The notes under the pieces are model-generated. The model searched no databases. It was not told where the DNA came from and worked only from the letters and a program-made list of their open reading frames with translations. Both the position numbers and the translations under genes were made by a program. This document shows positions 1-4,796 of a DNA stretch of 33,365 bases, piece by piece (the stretch's first letter is position 1; every line of letters starts with the position of its first letter). The stretch lies in contig JAUVFC010000001.1 in NCBI GenBank assembly GCA_030594505.1, positions 1-33,365 on the forward strand. The letters run 5' to 3'. Origin of the DNA: Desulfobacterales bacterium (GTDB lineage Bacteria > Desulfobacterota > Desulfobacteria > Desulfobacterales > C00003106).

Positions 1-374
1 CGGCTTCCCGAGAGCAGGCACAGGGGATCGAACAGGTAAGCAAGGCCGTAGCGGAAATGGACAAAGTAACCCAACAAAATGCAGCAGGCGCCGAAGAGTC
101 GGCTTCCGCCTCACAGAGTATGGGCGCCCAGGCAAAAGAGATGCAAAAGATGGTCAGAAACCTGATAACACTCGCGGGGGAGGAAGAAGATAGCTTTGCC
201 GCATCAAGAGACAAGACCGTTTTGGGCATCGACCGCCCGCGTCCGGAGATTGCCGCACGTGCACGGATTGGTAGAGCACAAGCTGTCAGGGCGGAAAGGC
301 CCGCAAAAAAGAAGGACTTTGTCTCCCCGGAGGAGATCATTCCGATGGAAGAGGAAGAGTTCAGTGAATTCTGA
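1..374 (+). CDS. methyl-accepting chemotaxis protein, C-terminal fragment (5' end outside the window)
   Basis: The frame is open from the window edge (..[35 protein letters not shown]..), matching the distal part of an MCP signalling domain. The tail ..EEIIPMEEEEFSEF is paralogous to the tail of the MCP at 3111..4796. Confidence 0.85.
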   Translation, partial: ASREQAQGIEQVSKAVAEMDKVTQQNAAGAEESASASQSMGAQAKEMQKMVRNLITLAGEEEDSFAASRDKTVLGIDRPRPEIAARARIGRAQAVRAERPAKKKDFVSPEEIIPMEEEEFSEF

Positions 375-506: not shown

Positions 507-2021
507 ATGTCCAGGACGGTAACCATTGACCCGATCACGAGGATCGAAGGCCACCTTGCAATCCGTATAAAGATAGATTCAAGTCGAGTCGTCAAGGCAT
601 TCAGCTCCGGTGAAATGTTTCGAGGATTCGAGGTAATCTTAAAAGGCCGGGACCCCATGGATGCCCAGCAGATTACGCAAAGGATATGCGGTGTGTGTCC
701 GGTATCCCATGGTACAGCGTCTATCCTGGCCCAGGATGCGGCCTACGGGGCAACCCCTCCGAAAAACGGAAGACTGATAAGAAATCTTATCCTGGGCGCC
801 AACTATATACAGTCTCATATCTTACATTTCTATCACCTGGCCGCGCTTGACTTTGTGGATATCACGGCAATTACTAAATACAAGGGAAGAGACCCTGTGC
901 TGCGCGATCTGAAAAAATGGGTAAAGGGTCAGATATCATCGAATGTCATCTATCCCGCGGCGCCGTTCCTTCCACGTTACTCCGGTAAATATATCCAGAA
1001 TACGGGCTTGAATATCCTGGCTATCAAACACTATCTTGACGCCCTGGACATGCGGACACTTGCCCATAAGGCGGGAGCGGTCTTTGGGGGGAAGCTCCCA
1101 CATGCCGCAACCTTGGTGCCCGGTGGCGTAACCGAAAAGGTGACTGCCGTCAAGATAGCCGCATATGCGTCGATGATCAGCAAGTTGCAGACCTTTATCG
1201 ACAAATCGTACCTCACGGACGTGGGGGAAGTGGCAGCGGCCTTCCCTGAATATTTCCGGATAGGCAAGGGGTGCGGCAACTTTTTGGCCTACGGGGTGTT
1301 CCCCGAATCCGCGAATAATTCAGAAAAACTCCTCCCTTCCGGCGTGGTCGTCGGAGGCAGGCTCAGATCCTTTGACGCAGCAAGAATTACGGAAGATGTC
1401 AGGTATTCCTTTTATTCGTCATCATCCGGTCTCCACCCGGTTCAAGGTCAAACAGTGCCTGCGCCACATAAAAATGGGGCCTATTCATGGCTTAAGGCGC
1501 CGCGTTATAACGGAACCGTCGTGGAAGTAGGTCCGTTGGCGCGCATCATGGTCGCCTATCTTAAAGGCGAAAATCGAGCGGTTAAAAAATTAGTAAATGG
1601 TCTTCTTGCCAAGTTGGGGAGAAAACCTAAAGACCTGCTCTCTGTGCTGGGGAGACACGCTGCAAGAGCTATTGAATGTAAAGTAGTAGCAGACCGGTGT
1701 GCTGAATGGGTGGAACAGTTAGTCCCGGGAGAACCGACGTTTCAAGACTTCACCATTCCCAAAACAGGAAGAGGTGTGGGATTGACCGAAGCCCCGCGGG
1801 GTGCATTGGGACACTGGCTTGAGATTGATGATCATAAAATAAAGCGCTACCAATGTGTAGTTCCGACTACATGGAACTGTTCTCCCCGTGATGACAATGG
1901 AAATCCGGGGGCCGTGGAGCAGGCGCTCGCAAGAACGCCGATCGCGAACAGTAAAAATCCGATAGAAGCAACACGGGTGGTGAGATCGTTTGATCCGTGC
2001 ATTGCCTGTGCGGTTCATTAA
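507..2021 (+). CDS. [NiFe] hydrogenase large (catalytic) subunit, 504 aa, no C-terminal maturation extension
   Basis: Carries RIEGH and RICGVCPVSH (Cys61/Cys64) near the N-terminus and DPCIACAVH (Cys498/Cys501/His504) at the very C-terminus. AAGGAG RBS at 494..499. The stop codon directly follows the His. Confidence 0.93.
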   Translation: MSRTVTIDPITRIEGHLAIRIKIDSSRVVKAFSSGEMFRGFEVILKGRDPMDAQQITQRICGVCPVSHGTASILAQDAAYGATPPKNGRLIRNLILGANYIQSHILHFYHLAALDFVDITAITKYKGRDPVLRDLKKWVKGQISSNVIYPAAPFLPRYSGKYIQNTGLNILAIKHYLDALDMRTLAHKAGAVFGGKLPHAATLVPGGVTEKVTAVKIAAYASMISKLQTFIDKSYLTDVGEVAAAFPEYFRIGKGCGNFLAYGVFPESANNSEKLLPSGVVVGGRLRSFDAARITEDVRYSFYSSSSGLHPVQGQTVPAPHKNGAYSWLKAPRYNGTVVEVGPLARIMVAYLKGENRAVKKLVNGLLAKLGRKPKDLLSVLGRHAARAIECKVVADRCAEWVEQLVPGEPTFQDFTIPKTGRGVGLTEAPRGALGHWLEIDDHKIKRYQCVVPTTWNCSPRDDNGNPGAVEQALARTPIANSKNPIEATRVVRSFDPCIACAVH

Positions 2022-2116
2022 CGGGTTGCGGGTTGCGGGTTGCGAGTTGCGGGTTGCGGGTTGATAGATAGAAGAGAAGTAAAACTCGTAACTCGCAACT
2101 CGTAACCCGTAACTGT
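2022..2116 (+). repeat. heptamer-array hairpin (6 x CGRGTTG, 20-nt loop, then AACYCGY units)
   Basis: 2031..2062 pairs with 2083..2114 over 32 consecutive pairs: 26 Watson-Crick plus 6 G-U when read as + strand RNA. The array starts on the base after the large-subunit stop codon. Confidence 0.9.
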
Positions 2117-2183
2117 GTCCACCTGCAAAAACCCTTGTGCCAATTTGGTGTTGTTTTGACGACAAAAAATTAGGAGCTTTCAC

Positions 2184-3107
2184 ATGTCTGATATAACTCG
2201 CAGAAAATTCCTGGAACTGAGTGTAAAGCTGGCCGCGCTGATGGGACTCGGGACATCGGCCATTCCGCAAATTGCCGAAGCGCTGGGACGACTTTCCGCA
2301 GGCGCCGCCCCGGTTTTATGGCTGCAAGGGCAAAGTTGCTCCGGCTGTTCGGTCTCACTATTAAATTCTGAAGAGCCCGGGCCGGCACAGATACTGACAG
2401 GATATATCTCCTTGCTGTTTCATTCCACACTGTCCGCCTCTACGGGTGATGTCAGCATGAAGGTCATTAATCGGAGTATAGACGAGGGGGGATACCTTCT
2501 GGTCGTTGAGGGGAGCATCCCGGCAGGAATGCCGGAAGCGTGCATAGTAGGGAAAGAACATTTAACAAAACAGGTCTTGCGGGCCTCAAGAAACGCCAAA
2601 GCAGTGATCGCTATAGGCACATGCGCATCATTCGGCGGCATCCCTGCCGCGGAAAATAACCCCACCGGCGCCGTGGGTCTTCCTGATTTTCTAAAAAGCA
2701 ACGGTGTCTCAACGCCGGTGATCACCCTGCCCGGTTGCCCCGCCCATCCGGACTGGCTGGTGGGAACTCTGGTGCACGTACTGAAATTTGGAATCCCGTC
2801 TCTGGATGACAAGGGTCGCCCCAAGATGTTTTTTTCCAGGCTGATTCACGATCAATGTCCCCGTTTCGCAGATTATGAAAGGGAGAATTTTGCCGGGACC
2901 TTTTCAGATGAAGGATGCCTTTTCAATCTGGGCTGCCTCGGACCGGTCACCCACGCTGATTGCACCCTGCGCCATTGGAATTCCGGCACCAATTGCTGCA
3001 TCAATGCAGGAGCGCCGTGTATCGGATGTGCCTCGGAAAATTTCGCGGCCAGGGCATCGTTTCCTTTTTATAGAAAAGGGGAACAGAATAAGGGAAAGGA
3101 AAGATAA
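2184..3107 (+). CDS. [NiFe] hydrogenase small (Fe-S) subunit with twin-arginine (Tat) signal peptide
   Basis: The N-terminus MSDITRRKFLELSVKLAALMGLG.. is a Tat motif. CSGC, GTCA and GCP are proximal-cluster motifs. HDQC..C-x5-C..C..CIGC are the distal/medial cluster ligands. AGGAG RBS at 2172..2176. No C-terminal membrane anchor. Confidence 0.92.
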   Translation: MSDITRRKFLELSVKLAALMGLGTSAIPQIAEALGRLSAGAAPVLWLQGQSCSGCSVSLLNSEEPGPAQILTGYISLLFHSTLSASTGDVSMKVINRSIDEGGYLLVVEGSIPAGMPEACIVGKEHLTKQVLRASRNAKAVIAIGTCASFGGIPAAENNPTGAVGLPDFLKSNGVSTPVITLPGCPAHPDWLVGTLVHVLKFGIPSLDDKGRPKMFFSRLIHDQCPRFADYERENFAGTFSDEGCLFNLGCLGPVTHADCTLRHWNSGTNCCINAGAPCIGCASENFAARASFPFYRKGEQNKGKER

Positions 3108-3110
3108 TAT

Positions 3111-4796
3111 ATGAAACTTCATACCAGATTATTTGATCATAAGAAGCTTCATACCAAATTGATTGTTTCGCTCGTGGGGGGCCTGATTGTCGTTGTTGCA
3201 CTGGCCCAGCTTATGCAGTACTTTGGCATTACAGGGTCAATTTCCGGTCTTTCAGAATCAAACATCAATCTCCTCAAGGAGAGGGAAGAAGAGAACGCCA
3301 AAAATATATTCCGGGCAGTAGAACAGGCTGTTGGCGGATCTCTTGAAAGAGGAGAAATGGAAAAATTCACCAAAATCCTCGAAGCCCAACGGGAAGTGGA
3401 AGGCTTGCTCGAGTTTTCTCTGTACGACCGCGAGGGGGTTGTATCACATTCCTCAGATCCTTCATTTCTAAAAAAGGAGCTTCCGCCGGATATTAAAACC
3501 CGGCTACTCGGTTCCCCTGAGATGCTTCTCCTCCATACACAAGAAGCGCTGGAGATTTATCAGCCTCAAAAGATCACAGGCGACTGTATCCGCTGTCATA
3601 TGGATTGGAAGACAGGGGATATAGGAGGGATAACCCATTTTAGATTTTCAACGGAAGCTTTAAGAAAAGCGGAAACGCAGGCAACAGCAACCATAGCGGA
3701 TGCGCAAAGCACATCGCTCAGGAATTCTTTCCTCACCGTACTCGGAATTATTGTCGTATCCGTAGTTACGATGTATTTTCTGATAAAAAAATTCGTAGGC
3801 CGGCCGCTCGACCAATTTATGCGGCTCCTGAAACAATCTAAAGGAGACCTTACACGTCGAATGCCGATAACAACACAAGACGAAATAGGGCAATTGGCAC
3901 GCTGGTTCAACTCCTTCATGGAACAGTTAAACAATGCAATCGGACATGCACAAGAGGCGGCCTTTATAGTAGGAAGCGGGGCCAGCGAACAAGCGGCCGC
4001 GGTAGAAGAGACCTCCGGATCCATGGAAGAGATGGCCTCCATGACCAAACAGAATGCGAGCAATGCTCAGGAAGCAAACAAGTTAATGACGGAAGTCTCT
4101 CAGGAGATCCATCAGGCCAATGAATCAATGAACTCCCTGACTCGCGCAATGGAGGAACTCTCAGAGGCAAGTGATAAAACAGCCAGGATCGTCAAGACAA
4201 TCGATGAAATTGCCTTTCAGACAAATCTCCTTGCCCTGAATGCAGCGGTGGAAGCTGCCCGTGCAGGAGAGGCAGGGGCAGGTTTTGCGGTAGTGGCTGA
4301 TGAGGTCAGAAACCTTGCCATGAGAGCAGCCGAATCCGCCAAGAGCACATCGGAACTGATCGACGACACCGTAAACAAGATCAAGGACAGCAGTGGTTTG
4401 GTAAGCAGGGCAAACGAAGCGTTTGAAGATGTGGCAGGGAGAAGTAAAAAGGCGGCGGCGCTGGTTAAAGAAATCGCAGCAGCTTCGCAAGAGCAGGCTC
4501 AAGGGATCGAGCAGGTCAATAAATCATTAGTGGAAATGGACAGGACAACCCAGGAAAACGCTGCACAGTCCGAAGAACTCACAGCTACCATGTCAATATT
4601 TAAAACAGAGCAAAGTGAAAATGAAAAACAGATTGAAGCTCCAGGCATAGCTTCAAAATCTGAAAAGAAGATTCGACCTGAAAAGAAGATTCGACCTGAA
4701 AAGGAGATTCGACCTGAAAAGATTATCCCGATGGATGATGACCTGTGGGATAATGACCTATGGGATAATGATGAAAAAAAATTCGAGGATTTTTAA
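3111..4796 (+). CDS. methyl-accepting chemotaxis protein with periplasmic CXXCH (haem-c type) sensor domain
   Basis: TM1 spans residues 17-38. A periplasmic domain of about 165 aa contains CIRCH (3585..3599). TM2 spans residues 206-226, followed by a HAMP-like segment. The signalling domain has the tip motif [38 protein letters not shown]. The ATG lies 3 nt after the small-subunit stop. Confidence 0.92.
4661..4724 (+). repeat. in-frame 18-bp tandem repeat (3.5 copies) in the MCP C-terminal linker
   Basis: tgaaaagaagattcgacc x2, tgaaaaggagattcgacc, then a partial tgaaaagatt. Encodes (E)[20 protein letters not shown]. Confidence 0.95.
4740..4769 (+). repeat. in-frame 15-bp tandem repeat (2 copies) in the MCP tail
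   Basis: gacctgtgggataat / gacctatgggataat, encoding [10 protein letters not shown]. Confidence 0.95.

What the first reader, a model, noticed from the sequence alone, without database searches (positions are those of the whole stretch)
507..3107. Hydrogenase with mosaic class features: no C-terminal maturation peptide, Tat small subunit, reversed gene order
Seen in the sequence: the large subunit ends ..SFDPCIACAVH-stop (1992..2021). Canonical periplasmic uptake enzymes carry a peptide after this His that a dedicated endopeptidase (HyaD/HupD/HynC type) removes. Lack of that peptide is typical of regulatory hydrogenases (HupV/HoxC) and some energy-converting types. The partner small subunit nevertheless has a Tat signal, which sensors lack. 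The first Ni-ligand motif is CGVC, with Val as in catalytic enzymes; as far as I recall the sensor gas-channel variant is CGIC. Gene order is large then small, the reverse of hyaAB/hupSL/hynAB/hoxBC. At 504 aa the protein is short for a periplasmic uptake enzyme. Together these features do not fit a textbook class and may mark a distinct lineage.
Basis: partly seen in the sequence, partly recalled or inferred. Interest (0 to 1): 0.6.

Follow-up and report, generated by a model that had tools for sequence, protein, structure and literature searches.

The report
Tail-less exported hydrogenase wired to chemoreceptor
This nickel-iron hydrogenase belongs to a widespread but undescribed branch of exported hydrogen-splitting enzymes that has lost the usual maturation tail and is almost always encoded directly in front of a haem-carrying signalling receptor, so it most likely serves as a hydrogen-gas sensor for swimming behaviour, not just as a respiratory enzyme.

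Summary
The 504-aa large subunit (507..2021) ends at the last Ni-ligand motif, DPCIACAVH-stop. It precedes a small subunit with a TRRKFLE twin-arginine leader (2184..3107).

This is a group 1 enzyme, not a group 2 sensor. It has catalytic-type channel residues (V63/L111, against I62/F110 in HoxC) and is closest to [NiFeSe]/1a enzymes.

The mosaic is a conserved signature of a multi-phylum clade. In that clade L(no tail)-S(Tat) is followed, usually within about 4 nt, by a transducer. The transducer is an MCP here (3111..4796) and a histidine kinase in a few genomes. Its periplasmic PDC-fold domain carries one CxxCH haem site.

In 401 genomes of the class, 43 of the 45 with this hydrogenase also had the sensor domain. 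The closest relatives that keep the tail show the classical layout: tetrahaem cytochrome c3, endopeptidase, small subunit, then large subunit.

Desulfobacula toluolica Tol2 has this enzyme as its only hydrogenase. It has HypD but no endopeptidase.

Best reading (about 0.5): a periplasmic H2 sensor that reduces the receptor haem. A respiratory or dual role is not excluded.

I found no published description. The scan has already noted the same cassette in at least seven other genomes.

The parts
507..2021 (+). [NiFe]-hydrogenase large subunit, 504 aa, no C-terminal extension; AAGGAG ribosome-binding site about 8 nt upstream
   Evidence: ORF and sequence. Pfam PF00374 E 8.5e-163. NCBIfam NF033181 676 bits against a cut-off of 600. 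Best PDB relatives are [NiFeSe] HysA, 436 bits.
681..713 (+). L1 Ni-ligand motif RICGVCPVSHG (Cys61, Cys64; Val63 is the catalytic-type gas-channel residue)
   Evidence: Alignment with HoxC, HoxG, HyaB, HybC and HysA.
1992..2021 (+). L2 Ni-ligand motif DPCIACAVH (Cys498, Cys501, His504) followed directly by TAA
   Evidence: The same C-terminus is found in all clade members inspected.
2022..2183 (+). L-S intergenic spacer holding heptamer repeats (cgggttg) and their complement. It is not conserved in length among relatives, whose L-S gaps run from 8 to 350 nt.
   Evidence: Sequence; spacer lengths.
2184..3107 (+). Hydrogenase small subunit, 307 aa. It has a twin-arginine leader (TRRKFLE at 2196..2216), ligands for three FeS clusters and no C-terminal membrane anchor.
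   Evidence: Pfam PF01058 and PF14720. Alignment to the HysB precursor includes the signal peptide, the distal His-x2-Cys and a fourth Cys at the medial cluster.
3111..4796 (+). Methyl-accepting chemotaxis protein, 561 aa, starting 3 nt after the small-subunit stop. Layout: TM1, periplasmic sensor, TM2, HAMP, MCP signalling domain.
   Evidence: Pfam HAMP and MCPsignal. The same position is kept in about 30 loci.
3222..3740 (+). Periplasmic PDC/extracytoplasmic-PAS-like sensor domain. It has one c-haem site, CIRCH (3585..3599), and a candidate axial Met83 (3357..3359).
   Evidence: AF2 model with pLDDT 84.6. Foldseek hits WalK, DctB, CitA, KinD and the GSU0935 haem sensor 3b42. In alignment A1, loss of CxxCH goes with loss of Met.
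3..374 (+). C-terminal end of another MCP-like protein upstream. It is context only and is cut by the window edge.
   Evidence: ORF list. It resembles the C-terminal signalling region of the downstream MCP. An upstream MCP is also present in L011.

Best explanation
The gene pair encodes a catalytically competent periplasmic group 1 [NiFe]-hydrogenase. It belongs to a distinct, old, horizontally mobile clade that works as the input module of a signal transducer. Proposed mechanism follows. Steps 1, 2 and 4 are inferred from sequence and comparison. Step 3 is the untested core. Step 1: the Hyp machinery loads the large subunit with the NiFe(CN)2CO cofactor, and no endopeptidase step is needed because the protein already ends at the His. 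Step 2: the large subunit binds the small subunit and is carried across the membrane by the small subunit's Tat leader. Step 3: in the periplasm, H2 oxidation sends electrons through the three FeS clusters to the single c-type haem of the PDC-fold sensor domain of the MCP encoded 3 nt downstream. That haem is predicted to have His163/Met83 axial ligation. Here the receptor haem takes the place held by tetrahaem cytochrome c3 in the closest canonical relatives. Step 4: the redox or ligation state of the haem is passed through TM2 and HAMP to the MCP signalling domain and CheA/CheW, biasing flagellar swimming with respect to H2. In some other genomes the same sensor domain feeds a histidine kinase instead.
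For: Phylogeny:
- The protein is in group 1, separated from group 2 with 100/100 support.
- The 19 tail-less, transducer-linked rows group at 89/89. They group at 99/99 together with two tail-bearing rows (FastTree).

Synteny:
- L(no tail)-S(RRxF)-MCP occurs in 29 loci from Thermodesulfobacteriota, Planctomycetota, a gammaproteobacterium and Magnetococcales.
- Two further loci are permuted but keep S-MCP adjacent.
- The median S-to-transducer gap is about 3 nt, with many 4-nt overlaps.

Co-occurrence in 401 genomes of the class:
- The sensor domain is present in 49 genomes and a family large subunit in 45.
- 43 genomes have both, and most exceptions are contig ends or a broken L gene.

Changing output, constant input:
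- The same sensor domain sits on hybrid histidine kinases.
- One of these lies in an L-S-RR-HK cluster (L065).
- Two orphan HKs lie in genomes that carry the L-S-MCP cassette elsewhere.

A second tail-less clade has the same build and a homologous Met+CxRCH domain:
- Denitrovibrio acetiphilus and Thermosulfurimonas have L-S-MCP.
- A Desulfuromonas sp. has L-S-PAS-HK.
- A single clade holding both groups is not rejected (AU p 0.27).

Contrast group:
- The nearest tail-bearing relatives (55-57% identical) have tetrahaem c3, endopeptidase, S(Tat) and L with a 14-aa tail, with hyp genes nearby and no MCP.

Maturation:
- In four genomes, six of the nine endopeptidase genes lie next to another large-subunit gene, and none lies near a cassette.
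- D. toluolica Tol2 has this enzyme as its only [NiFe] large subunit, with HypD and no endopeptidase.
- L018 has L-S-hypABFCDE without a protease.

Co-divergence:
- Pairwise distances correlate for L against sensor (rho 0.82) and S against sensor (rho 0.86), with 0 of 2000 permutations reaching these values.

Sensor fold:
- The AF2 model has pLDDT 84.6 and a PDC fold.
- Foldseek hits include the Geobacter haem-c sensor GSU0935.

The window's genome has two CheW-like genes, two CheA-like genes and flagellin.
Against: - No experiment or expression data exists. Electron transfer from the distal cluster to the receptor haem is pure inference.
- The active site and gas channel are those of a catalytic enzyme (V63/L111), not of the known H2 sensors.
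- All FeS ligands of a working electron relay are present, as expected for a respiratory enzyme too.
- In D. toluolica Tol2 the enzyme is the only hydrogenase. This would be odd for a pure sensor, unless H2 is only a cue.
- Phycisphaerae and Pirellulales versions keep the cassette but have lost CxxCH and the Met. Haem reduction therefore cannot be the universal coupling.
- Three family loci (L018, L021, L052) lack an adjacent transducer.
- One MCP with the sensor domain (G042) has no family hydrogenase in its genome at the threshold used.
- An earlier report of this scan on the same cassette elsewhere was later priced at 30/100 for the electron-relay reading.
Confidence: 0.5

Rival explanations
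1. It is an ordinary respiratory periplasmic uptake hydrogenase of the HysAB/1a type, as current annotations say. It feeds the soluble cytochrome c pool. The neighbouring haem-MCP is an independent redox or energy-taxis receptor that happens to be co-regulated.
For: - Closest solved and curated relatives are respiratory [NiFeSe]/[NiFe] enzymes.
- Channel residues are the catalytic type.
- The FeS relay is complete, with a His-ligated distal cluster.
- It is the sole hydrogenase of D. toluolica Tol2.
- Genome papers place such genes in the energy metabolism.
Against: - It does not explain why the transducer gene is glued to the small-subunit gene across phyla and across two deep clades.
- It does not explain why the output domain changes (MCP or HK) while the haem sensor stays.
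- It does not explain why the cytochrome c3 and protease genes of the sister lineage are gone.
- It does not explain why sensor and hydrogenase co-occur in 43 of 45 genomes.
Confidence: 0.15
2. The enzyme has a dual role. It is a working uptake hydrogenase whose electrons reach the periplasmic cytochrome pool, and the attached receptor haem samples that flux. Taxis then reports H2 turnover (energy taxis specific for H2), not H2 concentration.
For: - It reconciles the catalytic-type active site and the sole-hydrogenase case with the strict genetic linkage to a transducer.
- A single haem needs a re-oxidation route to act as a sensor, and the cytochrome pool would supply one.
Against: - No cytochrome c3 or membrane redox complex is conserved next to the cassette, unlike in the sister lineage.
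- Most carriers examined also hold separate canonical uptake hydrogenases with their own proteases.
Confidence: 0.25
3. Coupling is by protein contact, not electron transfer. The PDC domain binds the hydrogenase heterodimer, as some chemoreceptors bind periplasmic binding proteins, and reads an H2-dependent conformational or redox state. The haem would be accessory.
For: - Planctomycete versions (L031, L033, L036, L050) keep L-S-MCP and the rest of the sensor domain. They have replaced both Cys, the His and the Met of the haem site.
Against: - CxxCH plus Met is kept in all other members, including the distant Denitrovibrio/Thermosulfurimonas clade. This argues that the haem is central in most lineages.
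- No H2-dependent conformational change of standard hydrogenases is known to me.
Confidence: 0.08
4. It is a decayed or non-functional hydrogenase remnant whose missing tail reflects loss of maturation.
For: The tail is absent, and no endopeptidase lies nearby.
Against: - All four Ni-ligand Cys, the RIEGH proton-path motif and all FeS ligands are intact.
- The family is conserved at 50-90% identity over hundreds of sequences and several phyla.
- D. toluolica keeps HypD with this as its only client.
Confidence: 0.02

Closest known systems
Periplasmic group 1a [NiFeSe]/[NiFe] hydrogenases of sulfate reducers (D. vulgaris Hildenborough HysAB, Desulfomicrobium baculatum; PDB 5jsu, 2wpn, 1cc1)
   Same: - Highest sequence similarity, 436 and 245 bits.
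- Passes NCBIfam NF033181.
- About 500-aa large subunit.
- Tat leader on the small subunit, aligned residue for residue.
- A fourth Cys at the medial cluster.
- Soluble, with no membrane anchor or cytochrome b.
- V/L gas-channel pair.
   Different: - No 15-aa C-terminal extension and no cognate endopeptidase.
- Cys, not Sec, in L2.
- Gene order is L-S, not S-L.
- No cytochrome c3 gene. The conserved neighbour is a haem-c transducer.
- It carries a 30-residue segment (aa 119-150) that HysA lacks.
H2-sensing regulatory hydrogenases, group 2b (HoxBC-HoxJ of Cupriavidus necator, HupUV-HupT)
   Same: - The large subunit ends at the terminal His without a tail (HoxC from pHG1).
- It is genetically tied to a signal transducer.
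- In most genomes it coexists with separate energy-conserving hydrogenases.
   Different: - It lies in a different phylogenetic group, with a 100/100 split.
- Group 2b is cytoplasmic with no Tat leader. This enzyme is exported.
- Group 2b has the narrow I62/F110 channel. This enzyme has V63/L111.
- The 2b partner is a cytoplasmic PAS histidine kinase. Here it is a membrane MCP or HK with a periplasmic haem domain.
- Gene order is S-L in hoxBC.
Geobacter sulfurreducens haem-c periplasmic sensor MCPs GSU0582/GSU0935 (PDB 3b47/3b42)
   Same: - MCP with a periplasmic PAS/PDC-like domain carrying one CxxCH haem.
- Foldseek match to 3b42, E 8e-5.
- From memory of the 2008 structural paper, redox-linked Met ligation was proposed there. 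This was not checked here.
   Different: - No detectable sequence relationship: no Pfam or PDB sequence hit at E<=10.
- TM-scores are modest (0.4-0.5).
- As far as I know, the Geobacter receptors are not encoded behind a hydrogenase.
Putative chemotactic [FeFe]-hydrogenases, HydDB group C2
   Same: A hydrogenase proposed to sense H2 and signal through methyl-accepting chemotaxis proteins (PMC5037454).
   Different: - It belongs to an unrelated metalloenzyme superfamily.
- It is cytoplasmic, with fused or adjacent PAS-type modules.
- It is also only predicted.
- HydDB 2016 lists no [NiFe] class linked to chemotaxis.

Membership tests
[NiFe]-hydrogenase group 1 (exported uptake type) | Large subunit with L1 (RxCGxC) and L2 (DPCxxCxxH) Ni-ligand motifs | tested here: met
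   RICGVC at aa 59-64 and DPCIACAVH at aa 496-504. Pfam PF00374 full length.
[NiFe]-hydrogenase group 1 (exported uptake type) | Phylogenetic placement with group 1 reference large subunits rather than group 2 | tested here: met
   IQ-TREE of 70 rows: group 1 and group 2 are separated 100/100, and the window sequence lies inside group 1. FastTree of 115 rows agrees.
[NiFe]-hydrogenase group 1 (exported uptake type) | Small subunit with twin-arginine signal peptide | tested here: met
   The T-R-R-K-F-L-E motif and hydrophobic stretch align with the HysB precursor signal. RRxF is conserved across the clade. No dedicated Tat predictor was available, and the Pfam TAT_signal model did not fire.
[NiFe]-hydrogenase group 1 (exported uptake type) | C-terminal extension on the large subunit, removed by a dedicated HyaD/HybD/HynC-type endopeptidase | tested here: not met
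   The stop follows His504. No endopeptidase lies near any cassette. D. toluolica has the enzyme and no HycI-family gene.
[NiFe]-hydrogenase group 1 (exported uptake type) | Respiratory electron acceptor encoded with the enzyme (cytochrome b, cytochrome c3, Isp or HybA-type) | tested here: not met
   No such gene is in the window or is conserved in related loci. The sister lineage does have tetrahaem c3.
Group 1a ([NiFeSe]/Desulfovibrio-type) | Closest sequence similarity and curated model membership | tested here: met
   NF033181 scores 676 bits against a cut-off of 600. It does not reach the HysA 'exception' model NF045518 (542 against 780). Best PDB hits are HysA. The HydDB classifier itself could not be run.
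Group 1a ([NiFeSe]/Desulfovibrio-type) | Medial cluster with a fourth Cys ([4Fe-4S]) in the small subunit | tested here: met
   In the alignment, NCCIN matches NWCV of HysB. This is the position of Pro in [3Fe-4S] enzymes, which I give from established knowledge.
Group 2b regulatory (H2-sensing) hydrogenase | Large subunit without C-terminal extension | tested here: met
   (HoxC ends ...DPCMVCTVH).
Group 2b regulatory (H2-sensing) hydrogenase | Narrowed gas channel (Ile and Phe at HoxC positions 62/110) | tested here: not met
   V63/L111 in the window and in five of the six other clade members aligned; L040 has Leu at the first position. One member of the sister clade (Desulfuromonas sp., HK-linked) has CGIC.
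Group 2b regulatory (H2-sensing) hydrogenase | Cytoplasmic location (no Tat leader) and a cytoplasmic PAS histidine-kinase partner | tested here: not met
   A Tat-type leader is present. The partner is a membrane MCP with a periplasmic sensor.
Group 2b regulatory (H2-sensing) hydrogenase | Placement in the group 2 clade | tested here: not met
Haem-c PAS-like periplasmic chemoreceptor sensors (GSU0582/GSU0935 type) | Periplasmic PAS/PDC fold with a covalent haem motif between two TM helices of an MCP | tested here: met
   CIRCH lies between TM1 and TM2. The AF2 model shows a PDC fold. Foldseek matches 3b42 at E 8e-5. Haem attachment itself cannot be tested here.
Haem-c PAS-like periplasmic chemoreceptor sensors (GSU0582/GSU0935 type) | Sequence-family membership | tested here: not met
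   No Pfam family at E<=10 and no PDB sequence hit.

The most novel reading that the evidence does not exclude
This clade, perhaps together with the Denitrovibrio/Thermosulfurimonas clade, is a new functional class of [NiFe]-hydrogenase. It would be a periplasmic, Tat-exported, protease-independent H2 sensor derived from respiratory group 1a enzymes. Its electron acceptor would be the c-haem of a PDC-fold receptor domain, giving anaerobes true H2 chemotaxis, or H2-responsive two-component signalling where the output is a kinase. It would be the first bacterial H2-taxis receptor system and the first natural group 1 enzyme that is exported without C-terminal processing.
Probability: 0.45. Interest if true: 0.85.

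Novelty: new variant of a known kind. Interest (0 to 1): 0.72.

Why it matters
H2 is a central currency of anoxic ecosystems, yet no bacterial receptor for swimming towards or away from H2 is known. The only characterised H2 sensors are cytoplasmic group 2b enzymes that control transcription.

A periplasmic hydrogenase-haem-receptor module present in sulfate reducers, Deferribacteres, Planctomycetes, Omnitrophota and magnetotactic bacteria would explain how such cells find H2 sources or syntrophic partners.

It also bears on a standing question in hydrogenase maturation: whether the C-terminal extension and its protease are needed as a checkpoint before Tat export. Nature appears to have built an exported enzyme without them. 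One cultured genome, Desulfobacula toluolica Tol2, has Hyp proteins, this enzyme and no protease at all.

Finally, these genes are currently annotated as respiratory 'HysAB', which may inflate estimates of H2-respiring capacity in genome surveys.

Tried and rejected
- **Group 2b (sensor) membership:** rejected by the tree, the Tat leader and the channel residues.
- **Truncation, assembly artefact or read-through as the reason for the missing tail:** rejected. The same terminus occurs in every homologue inspected, and the downstream spacer is not conserved.
- **Sequence identification of the sensor domain:** Pfam at E<=10 and a PDB phmmer search gave only noise. Only a fold search placed it.
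- **Pfam TAT_signal on the first 60 aa of S:** no hit. The Tat call rests on the motif and on alignment to HysB.
- **Genomic context of the nearest tail-bearing relative P0121:**
  - Nothing was found in 401 genomes of the phylum.
  - It was then found in metagenome contigs.
- **Whether D. toluolica uses H2:**
  - The 1993 species description is not held.
  - The 2025 Desulfobacteraceae paper is not explicit for this strain.
- **Literature searches for a described [NiFe]-hydrogenase/MCP system:**
  - No description was found.
  - A 2025 neighbourhood survey lists an MCPsignal gene cluster (87 genes) near [NiFe] hydrogenases in a table, without comment.
- **HypD in the window's own genome:** not found, but the MAG is only 78% complete. 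HypA, HypB, HypC and HypE are present.
- **Single origin of the two tail-less transducer-linked clades:** neither shown nor rejected (AU p 0.27).


Full report
**1. The observation**

ORF 507..2021 (+) encodes a 504-aa [NiFe]-hydrogenase large subunit (L). It ends ...VVRSFDPCIACAVH, followed by TAA. Pfam NiFeSe_Hases matches to the very last residue.

In solved D. vulgaris HysA precursors the equivalent His is residue 492 of 507. The usual 15-residue tail is therefore absent here.

ORF 2184..3107 (+) is a 307-aa small subunit (S). Its N-terminus, MSDITRRKFLELSVKLAALMGLG...AEAL, aligns position by position with the Tat signal peptide of the HysB precursor 2wpn_A.

S carries these FeS-cluster ligands:
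- four Cys for a standard proximal cluster;
- His-x2-Cys...Cys-x5-Cys for the distal cluster;
- four Cys at the medial cluster.

It has no C-terminal anchor.

A length of 504 aa is normal for [NiFeSe]/1a-type enzymes and short only against groups 1b-1e.

**2. Not an accident of this contig**

All 120 best database homologues are about 501-521 aa. Every one I read ends in C(A/S)VH.

In 47 loci from species-representative genomes, the tail-less L is followed by an S with an RRxF leader. These loci come from Desulfobacterales and other Thermodesulfobacteriota, Phycisphaerae, Pirellulales (including cultured Novipirellula herctigrandis), a gammaproteobacterium and a Magnetococcales isolate.

**3. 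Class**

Reference sequences were taken from annotated plasmids:
- HoxG and HoxC of pHG1;
- E. coli HyaB;
- Providencia HybC;
- the C. acetobutylicum pSOL1-type enzyme;
- group 2a-like enzymes of Mesorhizobium and Thermus;
- the Alteromonas enzyme.

D. vulgaris HysA was read from the PDB alignment. 150 representatives at 50% identity came from a full database scan.

A 115-row FastTree and a 70-row IQ-TREE (LG+C20, PMSF) both split group 2 from group 1 with full support. Both put the window protein inside group 1, in the loosely resolved 1a-like radiation. That radiation also holds HysA and the clostridial enzyme. It is apart from the 1b-1e block, which holds HoxG, HyaB, HybC and this genome's own second hydrogenase.

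NCBIfam NF033181 accepts the protein (676 bits against a cut-off of 600).

HoxC I62 and F110 are the residues that narrow the sensor's gas channel, a fact I give from established knowledge of the Ralstonia regulatory hydrogenase. They align with V63 and L111 here, as in all catalytic references. The RIEGH motif is also standard.

So the enzyme is a catalytic-type group 1 hydrogenase that has lost only the tail. A paper that reviews naturally tail-less [NiFe] hydrogenases names groups 2b, 2d, 4c, 4e and 4g, and no group 1 enzyme (PMC7294309).

**4. What goes with the mosaic**

The next gene (3111..4796) starts 3 nt after the S stop. It is an MCP with HAMP and MCPsignal domains. It has two TM helices around a 170-residue periplasmic domain that holds a single CIRCH.

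This arrangement is the rule in the clade:
- 29 of the loci show L-S-MCP.
- L022 shows S-MCP-L.
- L044 keeps S-MCP together with L convergent.
- The S-to-transducer gap is typically -4 to +4 nt, while the L-to-S gap varies from 8 to 350 nt.

In 401 genomes of the class at 80% completeness or better:
- The sensor domain was found in 49.
- An L hit at E <= 1e-150 was found in 46.
- One of those 46, G151, is a tail-bearing S-L enzyme outside the clade.
- 43 genomes had both.
- The two remaining L-only cases (G266, G333) are at contig ends.
- One sensor-only case, G084, has a broken L gene next to it.

Pairwise divergence of L, S and the sensor domain is tightly correlated (rho 0.82-0.94, with 0 of 2000 permutations reaching it). 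Part of that reflects shared host ancestry.

**5. The partner is a module, and the output varies**

A search with the sensor domain alone gave 199 proteins. Most are MCPs, but several are hybrid histidine kinases.

One of these kinases lies in an L-S-response regulator-HK cluster (L065). Two others are orphan, but their genomes carry a complete L-S-MCP cassette elsewhere.

A second tail-less clade in the tree was followed up:
- Denitrovibrio acetiphilus DSM 12809, Thermosulfurimonas sp. F29 and an uncultured relative have L-S-MCP.
- A Desulfuromonas sp. has L-S-PAS-HisKA-HATPase.
- All four have RR leaders on S.
- All four have a distantly homologous sensor domain (27-31% identity) with the same ...GNM... 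and CxRCH landmarks.

The data do not reject one clade holding both groups (AU p 0.27), and they do not prove it either.

**6. The contrast group**

The nearest tail-bearing relatives are P0121-like, 55-57% identical, and next to the clade at 99/99. They were fetched from metagenome contigs.

They show the textbook respiratory layout: a 121-127-aa protein with four CxxCH (a tetrahaem cytochrome c3), then an endopeptidase, then S with a Tat leader, then L with a 14-residue tail. Hyp genes lie nearby and there is no MCP.

Across that one step in the tree, five things change together:
- the gene order flips;
- the tail goes;
- the protease goes;
- the cytochrome c3 goes;
- a haem-c transducer appears behind S.

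This is the strongest comparative argument that the receptor haem occupies the functional place of cytochrome c3.

**7. Maturation**

The window's MAG is 1.70 Mb and 78% complete. It has a second, canonical group 1 operon on contig C226: S, L with a 15-aa tail, endopeptidase, HypC and HypB. HypA and HypE lie elsewhere. HypD and HypF were not found, which proves little at this completeness.

In four well-assembled carriers, six of the nine HycI-family genes lie within a few hundred bases of another large-subunit gene, and none lies near a cassette.

G089 is Desulfobacula toluolica Tol2 by exact protein match, where the gene is annotated 'HysB, periplasmic [NiFeSe] hydrogenase large subunit'. 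This complete genome has:
- the cassette enzyme as its only [NiFe] large subunit;
- no [FeFe] hydrogenase;
- HypD;
- no endopeptidase.

L018 has L-S followed by hypA-B-F-C-D-E, again without a protease.

The inference is that Hyp proteins mature this enzyme without a proteolytic step, as in regulatory hydrogenases, and that it is nevertheless exported.

**8. The sensor domain**

An AlphaFold2 model built from a 32-sequence alignment has mean pLDDT 84.6. It shows a long N-terminal helix, a five-stranded PAS-like sheet with CxxCH at the start of a short helix, and a C-terminal helix leading into TM2.

Foldseek places it among extracytoplasmic PAS/PDC sensors (WalK, DctB, CitA, KinD). It also matches the Geobacter haem-c chemoreceptor domain GSU0935 (3b42, E 8e-5).

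Within the window clade, every CxxCH-bearing member aligned has a Met in the ERGEM motif (Met83 of the MCP). The four Planctomycete versions aligned that lack CxxCH have replaced that Met as well. The HSS His varies among haem-bearing members. I therefore predict His163/Met83 ligation.

The haem-less versions show that electron transfer to haem cannot be the only way the pair works.

**9. Reading**

The mosaic is the signature of a hydrogenase lineage recruited for signalling. The window's genome has CheW, CheA-like genes and flagellin, so the receptor has a pathway to act on.

| Claim | Probability |
|---|---|
| The hydrogenase and the transducer are one functional unit | about 0.75 |
| Specific relay: H2 to FeS clusters to receptor haem to taxis | about 0.5 |

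A dual respiratory and sensing role is the main rival. It is strengthened by the catalytic-type channel and by D. toluolica having no other hydrogenase.

**10. Known or new**

Searches of the held literature found no description of a [NiFe] hydrogenase coupled to an MCP.
- HydDB lists a putative chemotactic class only among [FeFe] enzymes.
- A 2025 neighbourhood survey tabulates an MCPsignal cluster near [NiFe] hydrogenases without discussing it.
- Genome papers treat such genes as respiratory HysAB.

Within this scan the cassette has been noted in at least seven other genomes. The electron-relay reading of one such report was later priced at 30/100. I took that as a reason for caution, not as evidence.

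**11. Limits**
- No Tat predictor was available.
- The backbone of the group 1 tree is poorly resolved.
- The context of several other tail-less tips is unknown.
- Three family loci lack an adjacent transducer.

Noticed in passing
window 2022-2183: The L-S spacer (162 nt) is filled with tandem cgggttg heptamers and their complement, able to form a long hairpin. The closest relative, L011, has a 153-nt spacer, but most clade members have only 8-60 nt. It looks like a recent insertion rather than part of the system.
   Followed up: partly
L015:2778-8746: A tandem-duplication scar: L-S-MCP1, then a 94-aa ORF that is a chimera of L and S fragments, then a second haem-MCP (MCP2).
   Followed up: no
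L031, L033, L036, L037, L039, L050 (Planctomycetota loci): These loci keep the L-S-MCP cassette, but their sensor domains contain no CxxCH. In the four that were aligned (L031, L033, L036, L050), both Cys, the His and the candidate axial Met are replaced while other conserved positions remain. Novipirellula (L044) still has CVRCH.
   Followed up: partly
L077 (G089 = Desulfobacula toluolica Tol2, C1:4586824-4590762): In this complete genome of a cultured sulfate reducer, the cassette enzyme is the only hydrogenase of any type detected. HypD is present and no HycI-family endopeptidase is found. It is annotated as a [NiFeSe] HysB although it has Cys, not Sec.
   Followed up: yes
L088:6001-10137 (Desulfuromonas sp. 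metagenome contig): The histidine-kinase-linked member of the sister clade has RICGIC in L1, the Ile typical of regulatory hydrogenases. The MCP-linked members have Val.
   Followed up: no
G000:C226:676-4954 (own genome, other contig): The same MAG carries a canonical group 1 operon: S, L with a 15-aa tail, endopeptidase, HypC and HypB. It also has three further group 3/4-like large-subunit genes on C163, C164 and C220.
   Followed up: partly
L082:4934-6285 (G084:C38): A cassette in which the large-subunit gene is broken into a 79-aa N-terminal piece and a remnant fused to S, while the haem-MCP is intact. This is either decay or an assembly error.
   Followed up: no
L078 and L079 (G044, G359): In one Desulfobacteraceae genus, one or two extra genes sit between S and the haem-MCP. 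One of them is a 425-435-aa MCP-signalling-domain protein without the sensor domain.
   Followed up: no
window 3-374 and 4612-4796: A second MCP ends just upstream of the hydrogenase. Both MCPs end in acidic/aromatic tails (EFSEF, KFEDF) that resemble CheR/CheB tethering pentapeptides.
   Followed up: no
L080:511-3264 (G151): A 52-54% identical relative has S-L order and a 14-aa tail. Its small subunit appears to lack any signal peptide (MGSEKEYPVLWIAGAAC...), which would make it a cytoplasmic cousin of this periplasmic lineage.
   Followed up: no
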